Both the position numbers and the translations under genes were made by a program. The notes below the pieces were generated by a model that did no database searches, was not told the origin of the DNA, and saw nothing but the letters and a program-made list of their open reading frames with translations. Positions 58,357 through 64,000 of a stretch of 64,000 nt of DNA are shown here, piece after piece. The first letter of the stretch is position 1. Every line of letters starts with the position of its first letter. Source of the stretch: Sediminispirochaeta sp. (GTDB lineage Bacteria > Spirochaetota > Spirochaetia > B11-G9); contig JANTFL010000001.1 in NCBI GenBank assembly GCA_024763455.1, positions 26,678 to 90,677 on the forward strand. Reading direction: 5' to 3'.

Positions 58357-58438
58357 GGGGAGGTTCCCGAGTGGTCAAAGGGGGCAGACTGTAAATCTGT
58401 TGGCTACGCCTTCGAAGGTTCAAATCCTTCTCTCCCCA
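58357..58438 (+). tRNA. tRNA-Tyr (anticodon GUA), long variable arm
   Basis: Acceptor GGGGAGG/TCTCCCC, anticodon arm GCAGA-CTGTAAA-TCTGT, a long variable arm, T arm GAAGG-TTCAAAT-CCTTC. It is collinear with E. coli tRNA-Tyr. No CCA is encoded. Confidence 0.85.
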
Positions 58439-58440
58439 TA

Positions 58441-58471
58441 GGTCTTCTCGAAAGAGAAGGCCTTTTTTTTT
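58441..58471 (+). terminator. intrinsic terminator after the tRNA-Thr/Tyr pair
   Basis: 9 bp stem GGTCTTCTC/GAGAAGGCC with a GAAA tetraloop, followed by nine T residues. Confidence 0.7.
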
Positions 58472-58482
58472 AGGGAAAAATT

Positions 58483-58929
58483 ATGAATAAACCGTTCTAC
58501 AAAAAAGGCTTGAATTTTGAGTGCGTCCAGTGTTCGGCGTGCTGCAGGTTTGATCCGGGATATGTATTTCTTTCTGCTTCAGATATGGATAGACTCGTTC
58601 TATACTTCAAGATGGAGAAGAAGGATATCGTGGAAAAGTATTGCCGGATTGTCGATATGGGAGACAGCAGACGTCTAAGTTTTAATGAAAAAAGGAATTT
58701 TGACTGCATCTTCTGGAAAGATGGAGGATGTTCTATTTATGAAGCAAGACCGCTTCAATGCCGCAGTTATCCATTCTGGCGCCCCTTTCTTGTAAATGAA
58801 GAAGCATGGAATAAAGAAGCTGAGAACTGTCCCGGGATGAACAGGGGGAAAAAACATTCTTTAAAAACTATTGAAAATTGGCTTGAAAAAAGAGATAATG
58901 AAACGTACAGACTTGAGGATATACTATGA
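58483..58929 (+). CDS. YkgJ-family cysteine-cluster protein (CxxCxxCC)
   Basis: 148 aa. FECVQCSACCRF and the second cluster CIFWKDGGCSIYEARPLQCRSYPFW fit the YkgJ/UPF0153 family. Confidence 0.7.
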   Translation: MNKPFYKKGLNFECVQCSACCRFDPGYVFLSASDMDRLVLYFKMEKKDIVEKYCRIVDMGDSRRLSFNEKRNFDCIFWKDGGCSIYEARPLQCRSYPFWRPFLVNEEAWNKEAENCPGMNRGKKHSLKTIENWLEKRDNETYRLEDIL

Positions 58930-59870
58930 AGGTACGGTTCTGGGGGGTGCGCGGCTCAATCCCCACTCCATTGACTTCGTCTCAGATACAGGGAAAGATT
59001 TCAGCGGCTGTCCAGCGTATACAGCCCAAGGATATAGTTGATCAAAAATCCAGAGAGTTGTTCATTGCATCTTTGCCGGAAAACCTGTTTGGAACGGTCG
59101 GTGGAAATACTACCAGCGTTGAGGTTCGTCTTGATGACGATACCGTTATAATTTTCGATGCAGGTTCAGGAATTTGCCGTCTTGGCGCGGATTTGGTACG
59201 GAAAAACGAGCATTTAAGGGATTATCATATCTTCTTTACCCATTTTCACTGGGACCATATACAAGGCTTGCCGTTTTTTTCTCCCCAGATGTATGATCCC
59301 CGATGTACCGTAAACTTTTATACACCCGAAGAGGGACTCAGGGATATCTTGAGCGGTCAGATGAGAAAACCCTACTTCCCTATAACGATGGATGTTTTCC
59401 ACGAGAATATAACCTATAACCAATTGAAAGGAAATTCTTTACGAATAGGCAATGCTGTAATTTCCTGGAAAAGAATGAAACATCCCGGTGGAGTTTTTTC
59501 ATATAAGATAGAAGAGAATGGCAAAACATTGATATTCTCCACCGATACGGAGCTTTCGGACAAAGATTTCGAAAAGAGCAGCAGGAATAGTGATTACTTC
59601 AAGGATGCTGATGTTTTGATTATCGACAGCCAGTATACCCTTGATGAGGCGATAGAAAAGTATGATTGGGGACACTCCTCCTACAGTTTATGCGTAGATT
59701 TTGCCTCAGTCTGGAATATAAAAAAACTTGTCCTCTTCCATCATGAACCTTCCTATGATGATAACAAAATGTATTCCATCCTCCAATCGGCGCGATGGTA
59801 TAGACAGTATCAGCAAAACTCAAATATATCCGTTTCTCTGGCGAAAGAGGGTATGGAGATTGTGCTTTGA
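58926..59870 (+). CDS. MBL-fold metallo-hydrolase
   Basis: 314 aa. It has the FTHFHWDHIQG (HxHxDH) motif and downstream D/H ligands (STDTE, WGHSS, LFHHEP). Confidence 0.75.
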   Translation: MKVRFWGVRGSIPTPLTSSQIQGKISAAVQRIQPKDIVDQKSRELFIASLPENLFGTVGGNTTSVEVRLDDDTVIIFDAGSGICRLGADLVRKNEHLRDYHIFFTHFHWDHIQGLPFFSPQMYDPRCTVNFYTPEEGLRDILSGQMRKPYFPITMDVFHENITYNQLKGNSLRIGNAVISWKRMKHPGGVFSYKIEENGKTLIFSTDTELSDKDFEKSSRNSDYFKDADVLIIDSQYTLDEAIEKYDWGHSSYSLCVDFASVWNIKKLVLFHHEPSYDDNKMYSILQSARWYRQYQQNSNISVSLAKEGMEIVL

Positions 59871-60064
59871 TAATTCTTCAGGGGAAAGAACTGGTTGCAG
59901 TGTATTTGCTGCTGAAAAAAGATGATAGTGATCTTGATCCTGCACAACTCAGTGTAAAGAACAGGATAGAAAAAGTCCTGTTTGAATCTCTTTCCATAGA
60001 AGAAATTGAATCTATAGAAGAACTATACAAAAAGAATGTTGATGTTCTGGGAAAAAAGCTATAA
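59867..60064 (+). CDS. small hypothetical protein (65 aa)
   Basis: The TTG start overlaps the MBL stop, and the ORF fills the gap before the giant ORF. There is no motif support, so coding status is uncertain. Confidence 0.3.
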   Translation: MIILQGKELVAVYLLLKKDDSDLDPAQLSVKNRIEKVLFESLSIEEIESIEELYKKNVDVLGKKL

Positions 60065-60073
60065 ATTCATAAC

Positions 60074-63000
60074 ATGAAAAAATATAAATTTATCAGTATT
60101 GCAGTAGTTTTTTTGGGTTTAACCACACTAGGCTCGTTCGGGCAGGAAAATGCCCGGGTAAAGGAATTTTATTCGCCGCTTTTCCTTTCTGGAACATGGA
60201 ATGAGACTGAACAGGCTGCTCCGCAGTCAGATGCCGTCAATCCTGCATCGTCTGCTCTTTACCAACGGACGACCCTTGATCTAAGCTATATGGGAATTGT
60301 CGGTGATGAAGGTACGCTTACGGGACAGAACGGATTCGCTTTTAATCTGGGGAATACCATTCCGACGAGAGCCGGGGTTTTTTCCTGGTCCGCACATATG
60401 CTGAAGTCAGATTATCTGAACTTTAATGTACCTTTTTATTTTGCAGTTTCGGGGTCTTTTTCAAAGGATCTCTATCCGAATCTTCTTGCTGGTCTAGGGG
60501 TGAAGGCTGCATATTCTTCCTTGCCCGGGTACAGTGCTGCAGTTGATCTGGGGATAATCTATCTTTCCGGAAATTTCTGGAAATTCACCGATACTGCCGT
60601 TGGCCTCACCCTTGCTGATTTGGGTTACAGCACAATTACAAAGGGATATCAACAGCCCTTTACTCCCTCTGCAGGAGTAAGCGGAACCCTGTTCAAGACT
60701 GATATTTTTTCCATGAAGCTCAACAGTAATATTAGTTCACCCGGTTTAAGTTCTGTTTTTATGAGCCTTGGGGGAAGTGTTGACTTTAAAAACATTATCT
60801 CTCTTACCTTTGGCAGCAGAATGGATTTAAGGTCCCTTCTAAACGGCAACAGCGCGGGGTTGATCCCTTCTGTAGGGCTTAATTTCAGATTTAATCCATC
60901 ACTAGGAGAAAACTCAACGTTTCTCGGGCTATCCGAAAAGGGCTGGAACAAGGGGCAGGTTGAGCTGCAATCATCTTTTGCACCCATTGCAGACGGGATT
61001 TGGTCATACGGCGCAGGGGCTAACGTGCAACTTGGAGTTTTAGATAAAGATCCACCGGAAATAGAGATCGATATTTCCGGTTTTGAATCGCAATCCATGA
61101 ACGTTCCGGCAAAGGGGCATAGTGAAAAGTACTCTTCCCACAGTAAACAAAGTAAAAAAATTGTTTATGTGGATTCAGGTAAAGACTCGATAAAAAAGAA
61201 TGCTCTGAAAAGTGACGGAGCAGTGCTTACCTATCTTTCTCCAAACAATGATGGAATTAAAGATGATTTGAAACTACCCATTAAAATAAAGGATTCAAGG
61301 TACATAAAAGGGTACTCTCTCGTCGTTACTGATTCTGAAGGAAATTTAGTCAGAGAGATAAAAAATAAAGAGAAAAGATCCGAAAATCAGGGATTTATGG
61401 GCTTTTTTGACCGTCTTACTGCAGTGAAGAGCGGTATAGATGTGCCGGAGGAACTGCGGTGGGATGGGTACAACGATTCGGGGAAGGTTGTTCCGGACGG
61501 AACCTACTATTTCCATGTCGAAGCCTGGGATGATAATGGTAACGTGAGTAAAACAAAAGAGTATGCGGTCGTTATCGATACTACTCCGCCGGAGGTAACC
61601 ATTAAGGAACCGCCGGAGGAAGAAAAAATATTCTCCCCGAATAACGACGGCAGCAAGGACACAGTATCGTTTGAACAGAATGGTTCCGTTGAGGATACAT
61701 GGACCGGAACAATACTGGATTCAAATGGAACAGTTGTAAAAACTTTTACCTGGTTAAATTCCGAACCGGAAAAAGTTGTCTGGAATGGTCTTGATAATAA
61801 CGGGAATATGGCTCCCGACGGAGTATATTCGTATGCAGTTACTAGTACTGACAGAGCCGGGAACAGCGTAGAGAAGGATTTTCAGAATATTATAAAGAAC
61901 ACAGAAGAGACACCCATTGCACTTAAAATTGATAAACAATTTTTCAGCCCAAACAACGACAAGATCATGGACACAATAATTCTTACTCCGGAAGTAAGTG
62001 TTAAAACAGGTCTGAGGAGCTGGAGCCTTTCTGTTTTTAATGCAAAGGGTGACGTTGAAAAGATCTTTTCAGGAACAGACAGTATACCTGAGAATCTGAT
62101 ATACGATGGCAGAGATAATTCCGGAATTATTCTTAAGGAAGGTACGTATTACGCCCTGCTGGACGTACAGTATGTAAACGGAAATAATCCTTCTGCGAAA
62201 TCTCCTGAATTTACAGTGGATGTTACTCCTCCCTCTGCAACAGTGAGGGTAAGTACAAAAGTTTTTTCACCCAATGGGGATGGACAGAAAGATACGGTAA
62301 AATTCTTTCAGGAAACATCCTTGGAAGAGGTGTGGACCGCTTCCATTTATTCCGCAGAGGGTGAGGTGGAGTATGACTACAACTGGATAGGTACTGCCGA
62401 ACCAGAGATTGAATGGAATGGGATCAGTAAAGACGGCAGACTTGGTTCTGACGGTGTTTATACCTACCAGCTTAGTGCTATTGACAGGGCTGGAAATCTG
62501 GGTAAATCAAATATCGTTTCGTTTAAGCTTGATACAGAAAAGACTGCAGTCATTCTTACAACCGAATACAATGTTTTTTCTCCTAACAACGATGGATCGA
62601 AGGATGAGATTAAGATAATACCTCAGTTGTCAGTAAAAGAGGGTATAGCGGCCTATACAATGAATATCTATGACAGCAGTAACACATCGGTGAGGGTATA
62701 TAGGGGCACAAAAAGTATTCCCGAGTATTTCCTCTGGGATGGGTCGGATGGTAAAGGAGTGAGAGTCCCTGATGGAGTCTACTATGCAAAACTGGATATG
62801 GAATATGACAAGGGGGATAAACCATCGGCTGTTTCGAGAAACATTGAGGTCGATACTGCATATCCTCAGATTACCCTGGCAACAGAGTATGTTTTGTTCT
62901 CGCCTGATGGTGACGGGAAAAAAGATTCGGTTATAATCAGCCAGCGATCTGAGGGAAGCGAGCAGTGGAGAGGAGAGATTCTAGATGCTGAAGGGAATAC

Positions 63001-64000
63001 GGTAAAGACCGTTTTTTGGAAAAATAGCGTAACCGACTTTTTGTGGGACGGGAGCGATACTGCAGGAAATATTGTAAAAGACGGGGTCTATACCTACAGA
63101 GTGAGTGCCGAGGATCAGGCAGGGAACCTCACCAAGAAAGAGATCAAAGGAATTACCGTTGATACCTCTATAACCAAAGTTTTTATTACTGCCAGTGATT
63201 CTTACCTGTCACCCACCGGGAACGGAAAGTATGAGAATTTAACGTTTAGGACCATCGTAACAAATAAAAAAGGGATAGCTTCCTGGTCGTTAATGCTTGT
63301 CAGAGAAGATTCAGGAAAGGTCGAAAAACTTTTCACTGGTGAAAACAGAATCCCCTCTAAGGTTATCTGGGATGGTGTGAACGATGATGGCCGATATTCC
63401 GAGGGTGAATATACTGCCGTATTTAAAGTTGTTTATCTGAAGGGAAATGAACCTGAGGCGCGTTCTTCAAAATTCATTCTCGATATATCTCCTCCCCGTG
63501 CGGATCTAAAACTGTCTCCCATCCCTTTCTCTCCGGATAATGACGGATTGAATGATGAGCTGACACTATCACTGAATGTGAGTGATCTGAGCGGAGTAGA
63601 AGATTGGGAACTGAATATCTACGATCCAGAGAAGAAACCTTTTATAAGTTTTAGTGGAAAGGGGACTCCTGCAGATTCCATTATATGGAACGGTAAGTCG
63701 TCCACCGGAGAACTTGTTTATGCGGCAATGGACTATCCCGTAATCTTTAAGGTAAAAGATATTCTCGGTAACGTTACGGTAAAACAGGATAAAATACCAA
63801 TTGATGTTCTTGTGGTCAAAGAGGGAAACGTACTCAAGATAAAGATCGCAAACATTGTTTTCAAGCGGGACAGTGCTGAACTTGTTGATGACGATCCTGA
63901 AAAAGCCAGGACGAATGAATATGTTCTGAACAGAATCAGTGAAATTCTGAGGAAATACAAGTCTTACCAGATAGTTATTGAAGGACACGCGGTTGTGACA
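60074..64000 (+). CDS. giant OmpA-family envelope protein, partial (3' end beyond window): signal peptide + beta-rich N-domain + 8 FlgD-Ig-like modules + OmpA-like C-terminal domain
   Basis: This ORF is not in the supplied ORF track because it has no stop in the window. Hand translation from the ATG at 60074 gives 1309 sense codons to 64000 in one frame. It has a signal peptide (MKKYKFISIAVVFLGLTTLGSFG/QEN) and eight modules each starting [FL]SPN(N/G)DG.KD and containing W(D/N)G.D..G....DG.Y.Y...A.D.AGN. From ~63830 it reads KIANIVFKRDSAELV...NRISEILRKYKSYQIVIEGHA, the start of an OmpA C-terminal-like domain. Confidence 0.85.
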   Translation, partial: MKKYKFISIAVVFLGLTTLGSFGQENARVKEFYSPLFLSGTWNETEQAAPQSDAVNPASSALYQRTTLDLSYMGIVGDEGTLTGQNGFAFNLGNTIPTRAGVFSWSAHMLKSDYLNFNVPFYFAVSGSFSKDLYPNLLAGLGVKAAYSSLPGYSAAVDLGIIYLSGNFWKFTDTAVGLTLADLGYSTITKGYQQPFTPSAGVSGTLFKTDIFSMKLNSNISSPGLSSVFMSLGGSVDFKNIISLTFGSRMDLRSLLNGNSAGLIPSVGLNFRFNPSLGENSTFLGLSEKGWNKGQVELQSSFAPIADGIWSYGAGANVQLGVLDKDPPEIEIDISGFESQSMNVPAKGHSEKYSSHSKQSKKIVYVDSGKDSIKKNALKSDGAVLTYLSPNNDGIKDDLKLPIKIKDSRYIKGYSLVVTDSEGNLVREIKNKEKRSENQGFMGFFDRLTAVKSGIDVPEELRWDGYNDSGKVVPDGTYYFHVEAWDDNGNVSKTKEYAVVIDTTPPEVTIKEPPEEEKIFSPNNDGSKDTVSFEQNGSVEDTWTGTILDSNGTVVKTFTWLNSEPEKVVWNGLDNNGNMAPDGVYSYAVTSTDRAGNSVEKDFQNIIKNTEETPIALKIDKQFFSPNNDKIMDTIILTPEVSVKTGLRSWSLSVFNAKGDVEKIFSGTDSIPENLIYDGRDNSGIILKEGTYYALLDVQYVNGNNPSAKSPEFTVDVTPPSATVRVSTKVFSPNGDGQKDTVKFFQETSLEEVWTASIYSAEGEVEYDYNWIGTAEPEIEWNGISKDGRLGSDGVYTYQLSAIDRAGNLGKSNIVSFKLDTEKTAVILTTEYNVFSPNNDGSKDEIKIIPQLSVKEGIAAYTMNIYDSSNTSVRVYRGTKSIPEYFLWDGSDGKGVRVPDGVYYAKLDMEYDKGDKPSAVSRNIEVDTAYPQITLATEYVLFSPDGDGKKDSVIISQRSEGSEQWRGEILDAEGNTVKTVFWKNSVTDFLWDGSDTAGNIVKDGVYTYRVSAEDQAGNLTKKEIKGITVDTSITKVFITASDSYLSPTGNGKYENLTFRTIVTNKKGIASWSLMLVREDSGKVEKLFTGENRIPSKVIWDGVNDDGRYSEGEYTAVFKVVYLKGNEPEARSSKFILDISPPRADLKLSPIPFSPDNDGLNDELTLSLNVSDLSGVEDWELNIYDPEKKPFISFSGKGTPADSIIWNGKSSTGELVYAAMDYPVIFKVKDILGNVTVKQDKIPIDVLVVKEGNVLKIKIANIVFKRDSAELVDDDPEKARTNEYVLNRISEILRKYKSYQIVIEGHAVVT
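61235..63850 (+). repeat. eight tandem FlgD-Ig-like coding modules with alternating A/B subtypes (~633 nt super-period)
   Basis: The [FL]SP motif codons start at 61235, 61631, 61943, 62264, 62576, 62897, 63206 and 63527. From the second module the spacings alternate 312/321/312/321/309/321 nt. Conservation is at the protein-motif level, not the DNA level. Confidence 0.75.

What the first reader, a model, noticed from the sequence alone, without database searches (positions are those of the whole stretch)
60074..64000. Largest gene in the window is invisible to the ORF track: a beta-domain + 8x FlgD-Ig + OmpA envelope protein
Seen in sequence: the track shows only short antisense ORFs between 60065 and 64000. 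Reading the + strand from the ATG at 60074 gives an uninterrupted frame of 1309 codons to the window edge. It encodes a Sec signal peptide, then a ~330 aa region with alternating hydrophobic/polar beta-strand-like periodicity. This is followed by eight Ig-like modules carrying the FSPNGDG.KD / WDG.D..G...DG.Y.Y / D.AGN motifs of the FlgD Ig-like family, and then the beginning of an OmpA-like peptidoglycan-binding domain.
Inference: if the N-domain is an outer-membrane barrel and the C-terminus binds peptidoglycan, the eight Ig modules would form a long periplasmic tether. In a spirochaete the periplasm must accommodate the flagellar filaments. A ruler or tether of this kind could set or buffer OM-to-PG spacing, by analogy to Lpp length controlling periplasm width in E. 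coli. The gene is co-directional with, and 9 nt downstream of, the YkgJ-MBL-65aa genes.
Basis: partly seen in the sequence, partly recalled or inferred. Interest (0 to 1): 0.65.

Follow-up and report, generated by a model that had tools for sequence, protein, structure and literature searches.

The report
Spirochaete outer-membrane-to-cell-wall tether protein
This is a real 1383-residue spirochaete envelope protein, built from an outer-membrane barrel, a rod of eight Ig-like modules and a cell-wall-binding domain, and it is the best candidate yet for what ties the spirochaete outer membrane to the cell wall across the flagella-filled periplasm.

Summary
The + frame from 60074 is open for 1309 codons. 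It is absent from the ORF list only because it runs off the window edge. A 99.9%-identical contig supplies the stop, giving 1383 aa.

More than 250 spirochaete relatives share this plan. The Ig array follows a strict grammar: first module, (A-B)n, last module, with n = 3 in about 80% of complete proteins and n = 1, 4, 5, 6 or 7 in the rest. The membrane anchor is interchangeable: a fused barrel here, a separate adjacent barrel gene in Treponema, or a lipoprotein signal peptide in other lineages.

The fused 8-module form sits in a conserved cluster, ykgJ-mbl-65aa-gene-mltG-dnaG (22 of 26 loci). All of this fits an outer-membrane-anchored, periplasm-spanning peptidoglycan tether. The "ruler" role is plausible but untested. 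It is a new variant of the OmpA/Pal kind, unnamed in databases and not found in the literature I searched.

The parts
58440..58463 (+). Terminator-like hairpin (10-bp stem plus T-run) just upstream of ykgJ. It probably marks the start of the transcription unit that contains the gene.
   Evidence: L001 56-79; L001 position 1 = window 58385. This is a consensus match only.
58483..58929 (+). ykgJ-like CxxCxxCC gene, a conserved upstream neighbour.
   Evidence: Pfam PF03692 E = 1e-11. Found upstream in most fused 8-module loci.
58926..59870 (+). Metallo-beta-lactamase-fold gene, a conserved upstream neighbour.
   Evidence: Pfam Lactamase_B_2 E = 7e-15. Conserved in synteny.
59867..60064 (+). Conserved 65-aa ORF of unknown function. 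It ends 9 nt before the gene.
   Evidence: No Pfam family.
60074..60145 (+). Sec (SPase I type) signal peptide, residues 1-24.
   Evidence: Sequence. The N-terminus is conserved in homologues. The AF2 model is helical with low pLDDT here.
60146..60268 (+). N-terminal hatch/plug segment, residues 25-65. It carries S34-P35, the NPA motif (N56-P57-A58) and Q64-R65.
   Evidence: Invariance in 32 diverse homologues. Short helices with pLDDT 87-94.
60269..61033 (+). 14-stranded outer-membrane beta-barrel, residues 66-320. The presumed extracellular turns are very short. A 21-residue periplasmic turn (274-294) carries a conserved GWN.SE motif.
61034..61216 (+). Junction motif D..PPEI, then a K/S-rich linker, residues 321-381. 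This is the point where the gene is split in Treponema.
   Evidence: Low pLDDT. The barrel-only proteins end at this motif.
61217..61612 (+). Ig module 1 (type 'f', residues 382-513, with a 22-aa insertion).
61613..63508 (+). Three A-B di-modules, modules 2-7: 514-617 A, 618-724 B, 725-828 A, 829-935 B, 936-1038 A, 1039-1145 B.
63509..63808 (+). Ig module 8 (type 'l', residues 1146-1245).
63809..64000 (+). Start of the OmpA-like domain (residues 1246-1309 of 1383). The remainder, the stop codon, and the downstream genes mltG, dnaG and rpoD lie beyond the window edge.
   Evidence: Pfam OmpA E = 4e-10 on the full protein. L001 extension. PDB OmpA-like and MotB hits. YceG and sigma-70 downstream.

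Best explanation
The gene encodes an outer-membrane-anchored, periplasm-spanning, peptidoglycan-binding tether. After Sec export, residues ~25-320 insert into the outer membrane as a plugged, 14-stranded FadL/PorV-type barrel with almost no surface loops. The chain leaves the barrel on the periplasmic side. It continues as a rod of eight Ig-like beta-sandwich modules, arranged as a first module, three A-B pairs and a last module. It ends in an OmpA-like domain that binds the peptidoglycan sacculus non-covalently. If the array is extended, it would span roughly 30 nm. That estimate uses the usual 3.5-4.5 nm per Ig/FN3-type domain, which is general knowledge and was not measured here. [quoted passage not shown] The protein would be this clade's version of OmpA/Pal and may limit or buffer the spacing.

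Shown here: the domain identities, their order, the module grammar, the interchangeable anchors and the synteny. Inferred: periplasmic location, peptidoglycan binding, an extended conformation and any role in spacing.
For: 2. **OmpA-like C-terminus.** It scores above Pfam's cut-off. PLS..RA and NRWKNRRVEF are invariant across the family.
3. **Interchangeable anchors on a constant Ig-OmpA body.** The barrel is fused in more than 180 proteins. In three independent Treponema/Spirochaetaceae loci a separate barrel gene sits immediately upstream of an Ig8-OmpA gene that has its own Sec signal peptide. In eight loci (seven distinct sequences) with 6, 8 or 12 modules the protein starts with a lipoprotein lipobox-Cys. 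These match the three known ways OmpA-domain proteins associate with the outer membrane (PMC5104382).
4. **Conserved length.** The grammar is f-(AB)n-l, with 8 modules in 150 of 186 complete proteins despite only 27-57% identity in the barrel.
5. **Synteny.** The peptidoglycan glycan-strand terminase mltG lies immediately downstream in 22 of 26 fused 8-module loci. An SLT/LysM transglycosylase lies upstream in one split locus.
6. **Literature.** OmpA-type proteins, defined as PF00691 plus a barrel, are reported as the only outer-membrane tether system in Spirochaetes (bioRxiv 10.1101/2021.05.31.446380).
Against: - There is no experimental localisation, and no peptidoglycan-binding assay.
- The canonical Asp of the TD(x)7NxxLSxxRA motif is not conserved, and a ~10-residue insertion sits in that loop. 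The comparable Tp0624 domain did not bind DAP. Binding to ornithine-type peptidoglycan is therefore assumed.
- The invariant hatch residues (NPA, QR) suggest the barrel does more than anchor.
- Classical models of spirochaete motility have the outer membrane moving relative to the cell cylinder (my recollection, not checked). Permanent tethers would hinder that.
- The Leptospira relative Lsa66 was reported as a low-copy surface adhesin. That evidence is weak.
Confidence: 0.62

Rival explanations
1. The primary role is transport. The barrel is a working FadL/PorV-type channel for hydrophobic molecules that is merely held in place by the Ig-OmpA leg. This would be a dual tether-plus-channel, as proposed for OmpM in diderm Firmicutes.
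For: The FadL-type fold and an invariant NPA hatch motif plus other invariant hatch residues. NPA is functionally essential in FadL (PMC8407342). OmpM is a precedent for a tether that is also a channel (bioRxiv 10.1101/2023.08.14.552755, listed).
Against: The barrel region is ~295 residues against FadL's 427. By DSSP, all presumed extracellular turns are 2-11 residues, so the extracellular capture domain of FadL is missing. There is no Toluene_X/FadL Pfam hit in 32 members. Lipoprotein-anchored relatives have no barrel at all yet keep the Ig-OmpA body, so the barrel is dispensable for the core function.
Confidence: 0.15
2. It is a periplasmic scaffold or layer rather than a vertical ruler. The Ig arrays lie along the outer membrane or peptidoglycan, or they contact the periplasmic flagella as a guide or bearing. 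Alternatively, an outer-membrane-anchored probe reaches MltG or the peptidoglycan synthases, as LpoA and LpoB do in E. coli.
For: FlgD-type Ig modules. Tight, conserved coupling to mltG, with the stop overlapping the mltG start by 1 nt in L001. In Leptospira an outer-membrane lipoprotein layer, not a classical tether, sets periplasm width (PMC13547282).
Against: No flagellar genes are in the conserved neighbourhood. The 12-module and lipoprotein forms are not next to mltG. Nothing here speaks to lateral assembly.
Confidence: 0.13
3. It is a surface adhesin. The Ig array is exported through or beside the barrel in the manner of an inverse autotransporter, or as claimed for Leptospira Lsa66, and binds external ligands.
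For: The barrel-then-Ig-repeats order resembles intimin and invasin. FlgD_ig, CHU_C and Big_13 domains are common in extracellular proteins. Lsa66 bound laminin, fibronectin and plasminogen in vitro and gave spots in live-cell immunofluorescence.
Against: - The distal domain is a peptidoglycan-binding type, which is pointless outside the cell.
- Split-lineage Ig-OmpA proteins have only a Sec signal peptide and no translocator.
- The carriers are mostly free-living sediment and gut spirochaetes.
- The Lsa66 study used LipL32 as its surface control, and LipL32 is now placed in the periplasm.
Confidence: 0.06

Closest known systems
OmpA (E. coli type) and Pal: OmpA_C-domain outer-membrane-to-peptidoglycan tethers
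   Same: The logic is the same: an outer-membrane anchor (barrel or lipid) followed by a C-terminal OmpA-like domain (PF00691), here above Pfam's cut-off. The family also has both barrel-anchored and lipoprotein-anchored versions.
   Different: The barrel has 14 strands and is FadL/PorV-like, not the 8-stranded OmpA barrel. About 860 residues of Ig modules separate the anchor from the binder, where OmpA has a short Pro-rich hinge. The canonical Asp of the peptidoglycan-binding motif is missing.
FadL / TodX and the T. pallidum FadL-like OMPs (TP0548, TP0856, TP0858, TP0859, TP0865)
   Same: A 14-stranded barrel with an N-terminal hatch carrying an NPA motif. Three of the five T. pallidum FadL-likes also have presumptively periplasmic C-terminal extensions (PMC8407342).
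   Different: There is no Pfam Toluene_X hit. The extracellular loops are minimal. The extension is Ig modules plus OmpA rather than alpha-helical.
PorV / PorQ (T9SS) and BamG of Bacteroidota
   Different: Scores are far below the family cut-off (22 against 90 bits). The Ig modules are internal repeats rather than a C-terminal sorting signal. No T9SS genes were seen in any locus. The array ends in OmpA, which implies a periplasmic rather than a surface position.
Leptospira Lsa66 (LIC10258) and T. pallidum Tp0624 / TP0292
   Same: These are spirochaete proteins with an OmpA-like C-terminus and no barrel. Lsa66 shares the Ig modules (NCBIfam NF053608 scores 368 bits over residues 386-745). Tp0624 shares the loss of the canonical Asp with retention of the Arg.
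   Different: Lsa66 is ~590 aa and barrel-less, and the score is below its 700-bit equivalog cut-off. Tp0624 has unrelated N-terminal domains and matches only over the OmpA domain.
Lpp (Braun's lipoprotein) as a periplasmic ruler
   Same: Proposed functional analogy only: the length of an outer-membrane-to-peptidoglycan connector sets periplasm width (cited in PMC13547282).
   Different: There is no homology. Lpp is a covalently linked helical trimer. Here the connector is a non-covalent OmpA-like binder on a modular Ig rod whose length changes in A-B steps.
OmpM (SLH-domain porin tether of diderm Terrabacteria)
   Same: A barrel plus a periplasmic cell-wall-binding domain acts as the main tether in a phylum that lacks Lpp and Pal.
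   Different: The wall-binding domain differs (SLH rather than OmpA), as do the barrel type and the domain order, and OmpM has no Ig spacer.

Membership tests
OmpA_C-like peptidoglycan-binding domain (Pfam PF00691) | Profile match above the gathering threshold | tested here: met
   40.3 bits against 27.2, E = 4e-10, residues 1263-1374 of the full-length protein. PDB sequence hits to Rv0899, MotB, YiaD, OprF and Pal.
OmpA_C-like peptidoglycan-binding domain (Pfam PF00691) | Binding motif TD(x)7NxxLSxxRA with critical Asp, Asn and Arg (as defined in PMC5104382) | tested here: inconclusive
   LS..RA with the Arg is invariant. The Asp after GH(T/A) is not conserved (EGHA[V/N/x]). A ~10-residue insertion follows, and an invariant Glu sits near the Asn position. 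The pattern resembles the spirochaete Tp0624 type.
OmpA_C-like peptidoglycan-binding domain (Pfam PF00691) | Actual binding to peptidoglycan | not testable with these tools
   Needs a sacculus pull-down or ITC with ornithine-type muropeptides.
Classical OmpA (8-stranded barrel + OmpA_C) | N-terminal 8-stranded OmpA-type barrel (PF01389) | tested here: not met
FadL / Toluene_X outer-membrane transporters (PF03349) | Sequence-profile membership | tested here: not met
   No hit in the window protein or in any of 32 diverse members at E <= 1. The family profile finds nothing among PDB sequences.
FadL / Toluene_X outer-membrane transporters (PF03349) | 14-stranded barrel plugged by an N-terminal hatch | tested here: met
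FadL / Toluene_X outer-membrane transporters (PF03349) | Conserved NPA motif in the hatch | tested here: met
   N56 32/32, P57 32/32, A58 30/32. It is also present in the Treponema barrel-only protein.
FadL / Toluene_X outer-membrane transporters (PF03349) | Extracellular ligand-capture loops and an S3-kink lateral gate | tested here: inconclusive
   DSSP shows only 2-11-residue turns on the presumed outer face, which argues against a capture domain.
PorV/PorQ family (NCBIfam NF033709, NF033711) | Profile match above the curated cut-off | tested here: not met
PorV/PorQ family (NCBIfam NF033709, NF033711) | Genomic co-occurrence with T9SS components | not tested
   None were seen in the ~87 loci examined, but whole genomes were not surveyed.
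FlgD Ig-like domain (PF13860) | Profile match above the gathering threshold | tested here: met
FlgD hook-capping protein | FlgD equivalog models at full length | tested here: not met
   NCBIfam FlgD equivalogs score 38-83 bits against cut-offs of 230-383, and only over the Ig part.
T9SS type B C-terminal sorting domain (TIGR04131 / PF13585 CHU_C) | The domain lies at the extreme C-terminus of a secreted cargo | tested here: not met
   The models hit above cut-off (72.5 against 35 and 125 against 27). The matches are internal tandem modules, and the C-terminus is OmpA.
Lsa66 (NCBIfam NF053608, equivalog) | Score above the equivalog cut-off | tested here: not met
   368.6 bits against 700, covering only residues 386-745.
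Inverse autotransporters (intimin/invasin) | 12-stranded translocator barrel with the linker threaded through the pore, and a periplasmic LysM domain | tested here: not met

The most novel reading that the evidence does not exclude
The family is a modular molecular ruler. The number of A-B Ig pairs (n = 1, 3, 4, 5, 6 or 7) sets the outer-membrane-to-peptidoglycan distance in each spirochaete lineage so that the periplasmic flagella fit. The non-covalent docking of the Ig-OmpA leg onto its PorV-like barrel, made explicit in the split Treponema genes, is homologous to PorV/PorQ-CTD docking in type IX secretion. That would link the T9SS attachment module evolutionarily to an ancient envelope tether.
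Probability: 0.2. Interest if true: 0.82.

Novelty: new variant of a known kind. Interest (0 to 1): 0.62.

Why it matters
How the spirochaete outer membrane is held to the cell, and what sets the width of the periplasm that houses the flagella, are open questions. Borrelia appears to lack the usual peptidoglycan-associated proteins (PMC8118282). T. pallidum's OmpA-like proteins have no barrel (PMC8407342). In Leptospira an unrelated lipoprotein layer was only recently implicated (PMC13547282).

This family is widespread in free-living and gut spirochaetes, with hundreds of clusters. It has a clear anchor-spacer-binder design. It also comes with natural experiments: 4-, 8-, 12- and 16-module versions, fused, split and lipid-anchored forms, and a conserved link to mltG. 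These make the tether/ruler idea directly testable by cryo-ET and genetics.

The work also assigns a fold and a likely role to a barrel domain with no Pfam family, and to about 80 clusters of Treponema 'hypothetical proteins'.

Tried and rejected
- **Frameshift or pseudogene.** Rejected. The frame is open, and the 1383-aa product aligns end to end with more than 100 homologues.
- **Antisense ORFs.** The short antisense ORFs at 60494-63988 are treated as non-coding, because the + frame is conserved across the phylum.
- **Classical 8-stranded OmpA barrel.** Rejected.
- **Inverse-autotransporter reading.** Considered and ranked low.
- **FlgD or flagellar protein, and 'gliding motility / T9SS cargo' as some databases name it.** Rejected on the membership tests.
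- **N-domain-only word-index search.** It returned just 2 proteins. That was a sensitivity artefact. The exhaustive profile search found 495 clusters.
- **The search for related loci with the barrel alignment.** It failed for lack of a conserved 7-10-column stretch. I used the single protein instead and later the OmpA-domain alignment.
- **afdb50 fold search.** Unavailable, so named UniProt relatives of the barrel could not be listed.
- **Published envelope dimensions.** I could not retrieve outer-membrane-to-peptidoglycan distances for Treponema or Spirochaeta. The ~30 nm comparison rests on general knowledge only.
- **Link between the 65-aa ORF and the gene.** In this window the 65-aa ORF is in the same frame as the gene, separated by TAA plus 3 codons. 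It is not in frame in S. cellobiosiphila, so readthrough or fusion was dismissed.
- **Taxon names for the 4-module variants.** They stayed at MAG level, so I could not test whether non-flagellated spirochaetes carry shorter versions.

Full report
**Observation.** Translating window 60074-64000 on the + strand gives 1309 codons with no stop. The ORF list shows only short antisense ORFs there because the tool, by its own rule, does not list ORFs that run off an end of the source. The 'invisibility' is therefore an edge artefact. The largest complete ORF in the window is 830 aa, so this is the largest gene. Looking up the neighbouring metallo-beta-lactamase gene retrieved a 9.5-kb contig, L001. 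It overlaps the window from position 58385 with 5 mismatches in 5616 bases and carries the rest of the gene. The full product is 1383 aa and ends at a stop that overlaps the next gene's start by one base. The closest genome record is a Guaymas Basin 'Spirochaetes bacterium' MAG at 93% identity.

The hatch segment carries an NPA motif that is essentially invariant (N56 and P57 in 32/32, A58 in 30/32), followed by an invariant Q64-R65. NPA is the hallmark of the FadL hatch (PMC8407342). At the sequence level the only signal is sub-threshold similarity to the NCBIfam PorV/PorQ family, in 9 of 32 members (best E = 2e-5; the window protein scores 22 bits against a cut-off of 90). No member hits FadL/Toluene_X. 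By the DSSP string, the turns on the presumed outer face are only 2-11 residues long. The longest non-strand insertion, residues 274-294 with a conserved GWN.SE motif, falls on the periplasmic side (orientation inferred from FadL topology). This is a minimal, plugged FadL/PorV-type barrel. With an even strand number, the chain leaves it into the periplasm (established OMP topology).

**Family and grammar.** A search with the full-length protein returned 180 hits (E <= 1e-5), of which the best 120 were listed. Nearly all of those are full-length relatives (39-96% identity) with the same Pfam content. They are annotated only as 'OmpA family protein', 'FlgD immunoglobulin-like domain containing protein', 'gliding motility-associated C-terminal domain-containing protein' or 'MotB, partial', and all come from Spirochaetia, including Spirochaeta cellobiosiphila. 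The barrel is present in every one. An exhaustive profile search with the barrel found 495 representative clusters at E <= 1e-3 and 228 at E <= 1e-30.

I counted modules with my own HMMs in 266 fetched proteins. Complete proteins, meaning barrel plus OmpA, have:
- 8 modules: 151 proteins
- 12 modules: 21
- 4 modules: 7
- 11 modules: 3
- 10 modules: 2
- 14 modules: 1
- 16 modules: 1

Shorter OmpA-less ones look like contig truncations. Typing each module shows a strict grammar, f-(A-B)n-l:

| n | modules | proteins |
|---|---|---|
| 3 | 8 | 150 |
| 5 | 12 | 20 |
| 1 | 4 | 7 |
| 4 | 10 | 2 |
| 6 | 14 | 1 |
| 7 | 16 | 1 (Rectinemataceae) |

The A-B pair is therefore the unit of length change, and n = 3 is strongly preferred across lineages whose barrels are only 27-57% identical.

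**Interchangeable anchors.** About 30 of the barrel relatives from the profile search, and 78 clusters found with one of them as query, are complete proteins of 337-382 aa that consist of the barrel alone. They come from Treponema spp. or Spirochaetaceae, and all that carry a name are 'hypothetical protein'. In three independent loci (L005, L006, L007) the barrel gene is followed, at -4 to +141 nt, by a 1060-1074-aa gene with FlgD_ig and OmpA domains. In L005 this gene has its own Sec-type signal peptide and eight modules. In the same locus the barrel protein ends exactly at the conserved D..PPEI junction that follows the barrel in the fused proteins.

A metagenome scan with the OmpA-domain alignment gave 442 relatives, of which I analysed 80 loci. 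That scan also turned up complete barrel-less Ig-OmpA proteins in eight loci (seven distinct sequences; L064 and L068 are identical). They have 6, 8 or 12 modules and begin with lipoprotein signal peptides ending in LVGC, AAGC, ISGC, IPGC, SASC or ITGC.

The Ig-OmpA body is therefore constant while the membrane anchor is a fused barrel, an adjacent separate barrel or a lipid. These are the three known routes by which OmpA-domain proteins associate with the outer membrane (PMC5104382). This is the strongest comparative evidence that the Ig array is a periplasmic spacer between a membrane anchor and a wall binder.

**Neighbourhood.** In the window and L001 the order is:
1. a terminator-like hairpin
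2. ykgJ (CxxCxxCC)
3. a metallo-beta-lactamase-fold gene
4. a 65-aa ORF
5. the gene
6. YceG/MltG
7. DnaG
8. the start of sigma-70

The same order, without the MBL gene, is found in S. cellobiosiphila at 40% protein identity. Among metagenome loci with a complete fused 8-module gene and at least 600 nt downstream, 22 of 26 have YceG immediately downstream, usually followed by DnaG. The fused 12-module genes (0 of 3) and the lipoprotein forms lack this context. One split locus has an SLT/LysM lytic transglycosylase immediately upstream. The link to peptidoglycan-remodelling enzymes is suggestive, but it may simply reflect a housekeeping operon.

**The OmpA domain.** Across 186 family members, EGHA, E..EL.PLS..RA..V and G.GG..P.VP..D..NRWKNRRVEFIL are conserved. 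The canonical binding motif is TD(x)7NxxLSxxRA (PMC5104382). Relative to it, the Arg is invariant, the Asp is not conserved, and a ~10-residue insertion precedes the LS..RA helix. Parker et al. describe the same kind of deviation, Asp lost and Arg kept, in Tp0624 and its spirochaete homologues. They showed that Tp0624 does not bind DAP, and they noted that most spirochaetes have ornithine rather than DAP in their peptidoglycan. Peptidoglycan binding by this domain is therefore a reasonable inference, not a demonstrated fact.

**Interpretation.** The best-supported reading is an outer-membrane-anchored, periplasm-spanning, peptidoglycan-binding tether. It would be the spirochaete variant of the OmpA/Pal principle, with a FadL/PorV-type anchor and a modular Ig rod. 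Witwinowski et al. defined OmpA as PF00691 plus a predicted barrel and reported it as the only tether system in Spirochaetes. This family would have been scored under that heading without its architecture being described. I found no paper that describes it.

It fits the conserved, quantised length and the reported greater distance between outer membrane and peptidoglycan in treponemes (PMC5104382). I also could not retrieve published envelope dimensions or correlate module number with morphology.

Rival readings are:
- a working hydrophobic-solute channel that is also tethered. This is supported by the invariant hatch and weakened by the missing extracellular loops and the barrel-less relatives.
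- a lateral scaffold, flagellar guide or MltG-directed probe.
- a surface adhesin of the Lsa66 or inverse-autotransporter kind. This is disfavoured by the fold, the plug, the distal wall-binding domain and the Sec-only split form. The Lsa66 surface evidence also relied on LipL32 as a surface marker.

**Verdict.** The architectural interpretation is supported and refined. The ruler function remains a good, testable hypothesis. The family is uncharacterised, and its barrel has no Pfam model, but in kind it is a new variant of the OmpA/Pal class of envelope tethers rather than something categorically new.

Noticed in passing
window 59867-60064 (+); L003 562-756: A ~65-aa acidic ORF with no signal peptide and no Pfam family is conserved immediately upstream of the tether gene from this window to S. 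cellobiosiphila. It has blastp matches in about 15 metagenome loci. In this window it is in the same frame as the big gene (TAA plus 3 codons between them), but it is not in frame in L003.
   Followed up: partly
window 58926-59870 (+): For the conserved upstream MBL-fold gene, the precomputed Pfam list includes PF23023 (Anti-Pycsar Apyc1, a cyclic-nucleotide phosphodiesterase family). My own hmmscan at E <= 1e-3 returned only Lactamase_B_2.
   Followed up: partly
L005 8001-12255; L006 7001-11401; L007 3836-8052: In Treponema and Spirochaetaceae the gene is split into a barrel-only gene (~340-380 aa, 78 clusters, those that carry a name 'hypothetical protein') and an adjacent Ig8-OmpA gene that (checked in L005) has its own signal peptide. 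This is a natural fission that implies non-covalent barrel-leg docking.
   Followed up: yes
L037, L038, L043, L064, L068, L072, L073, L077: Barrel-less Ig-OmpA relatives with 6, 8 or 12 modules start with lipoprotein signal peptides (lipobox-Cys). L043 carries two such genes in tandem: an Ig6-OmpA gene (844 aa, lipobox confirmed) followed by an Ig2-OmpA gene (436 aa, N-terminus not inspected).
   Followed up: partly
L001 5841-6872 and 22 of 26 metagenome loci: The peptidoglycan glycan-strand terminase gene mltG (YceG) lies immediately downstream of the fused 8-module gene. It overlaps the stop by 1 nt in L001 and is followed by dnaG and rpoD. The 12-module and lipoprotein forms lack this context.
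   Followed up: partly
L007 2322-3767: An SLT + LysM lytic transglycosylase gene sits directly upstream of the split barrel / Ig-OmpA pair in one Spirochaetaceae MAG. This is a second, independent association with a peptidoglycan-remodelling enzyme.
   Followed up: no
window 58440-58463 (+): A strong terminator-like hairpin (10-bp stem plus T-run) lies just before ykgJ. It suggests that the ykgJ-mbl-65aa-tether-mltG-dnaG-rpoD genes form one transcription unit.
   Followed up: no
window 58385-64000 compared with L001: There are five single-base differences between the window and the Logan contig. One changes a residue in module 7 (T to S, in ...KLF[T/S]GENR...), so this is strain-level variation and not a frameshift.
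   Followed up: partly
window 61034-61216 (residues 321-381): This clade has a K/S-rich linker between the barrel and module 1 that is ~40 residues longer than in many relatives, where D..PPEI is followed almost directly by the first FSPN motif.
   Followed up: no
(tool behaviour): The word-index homologue search with the N-domain alone returned only 2 proteins, although more than 100 already-found homologues carry the domain. The exhaustive HMM search recovered 495 clusters.
   Followed up: yes
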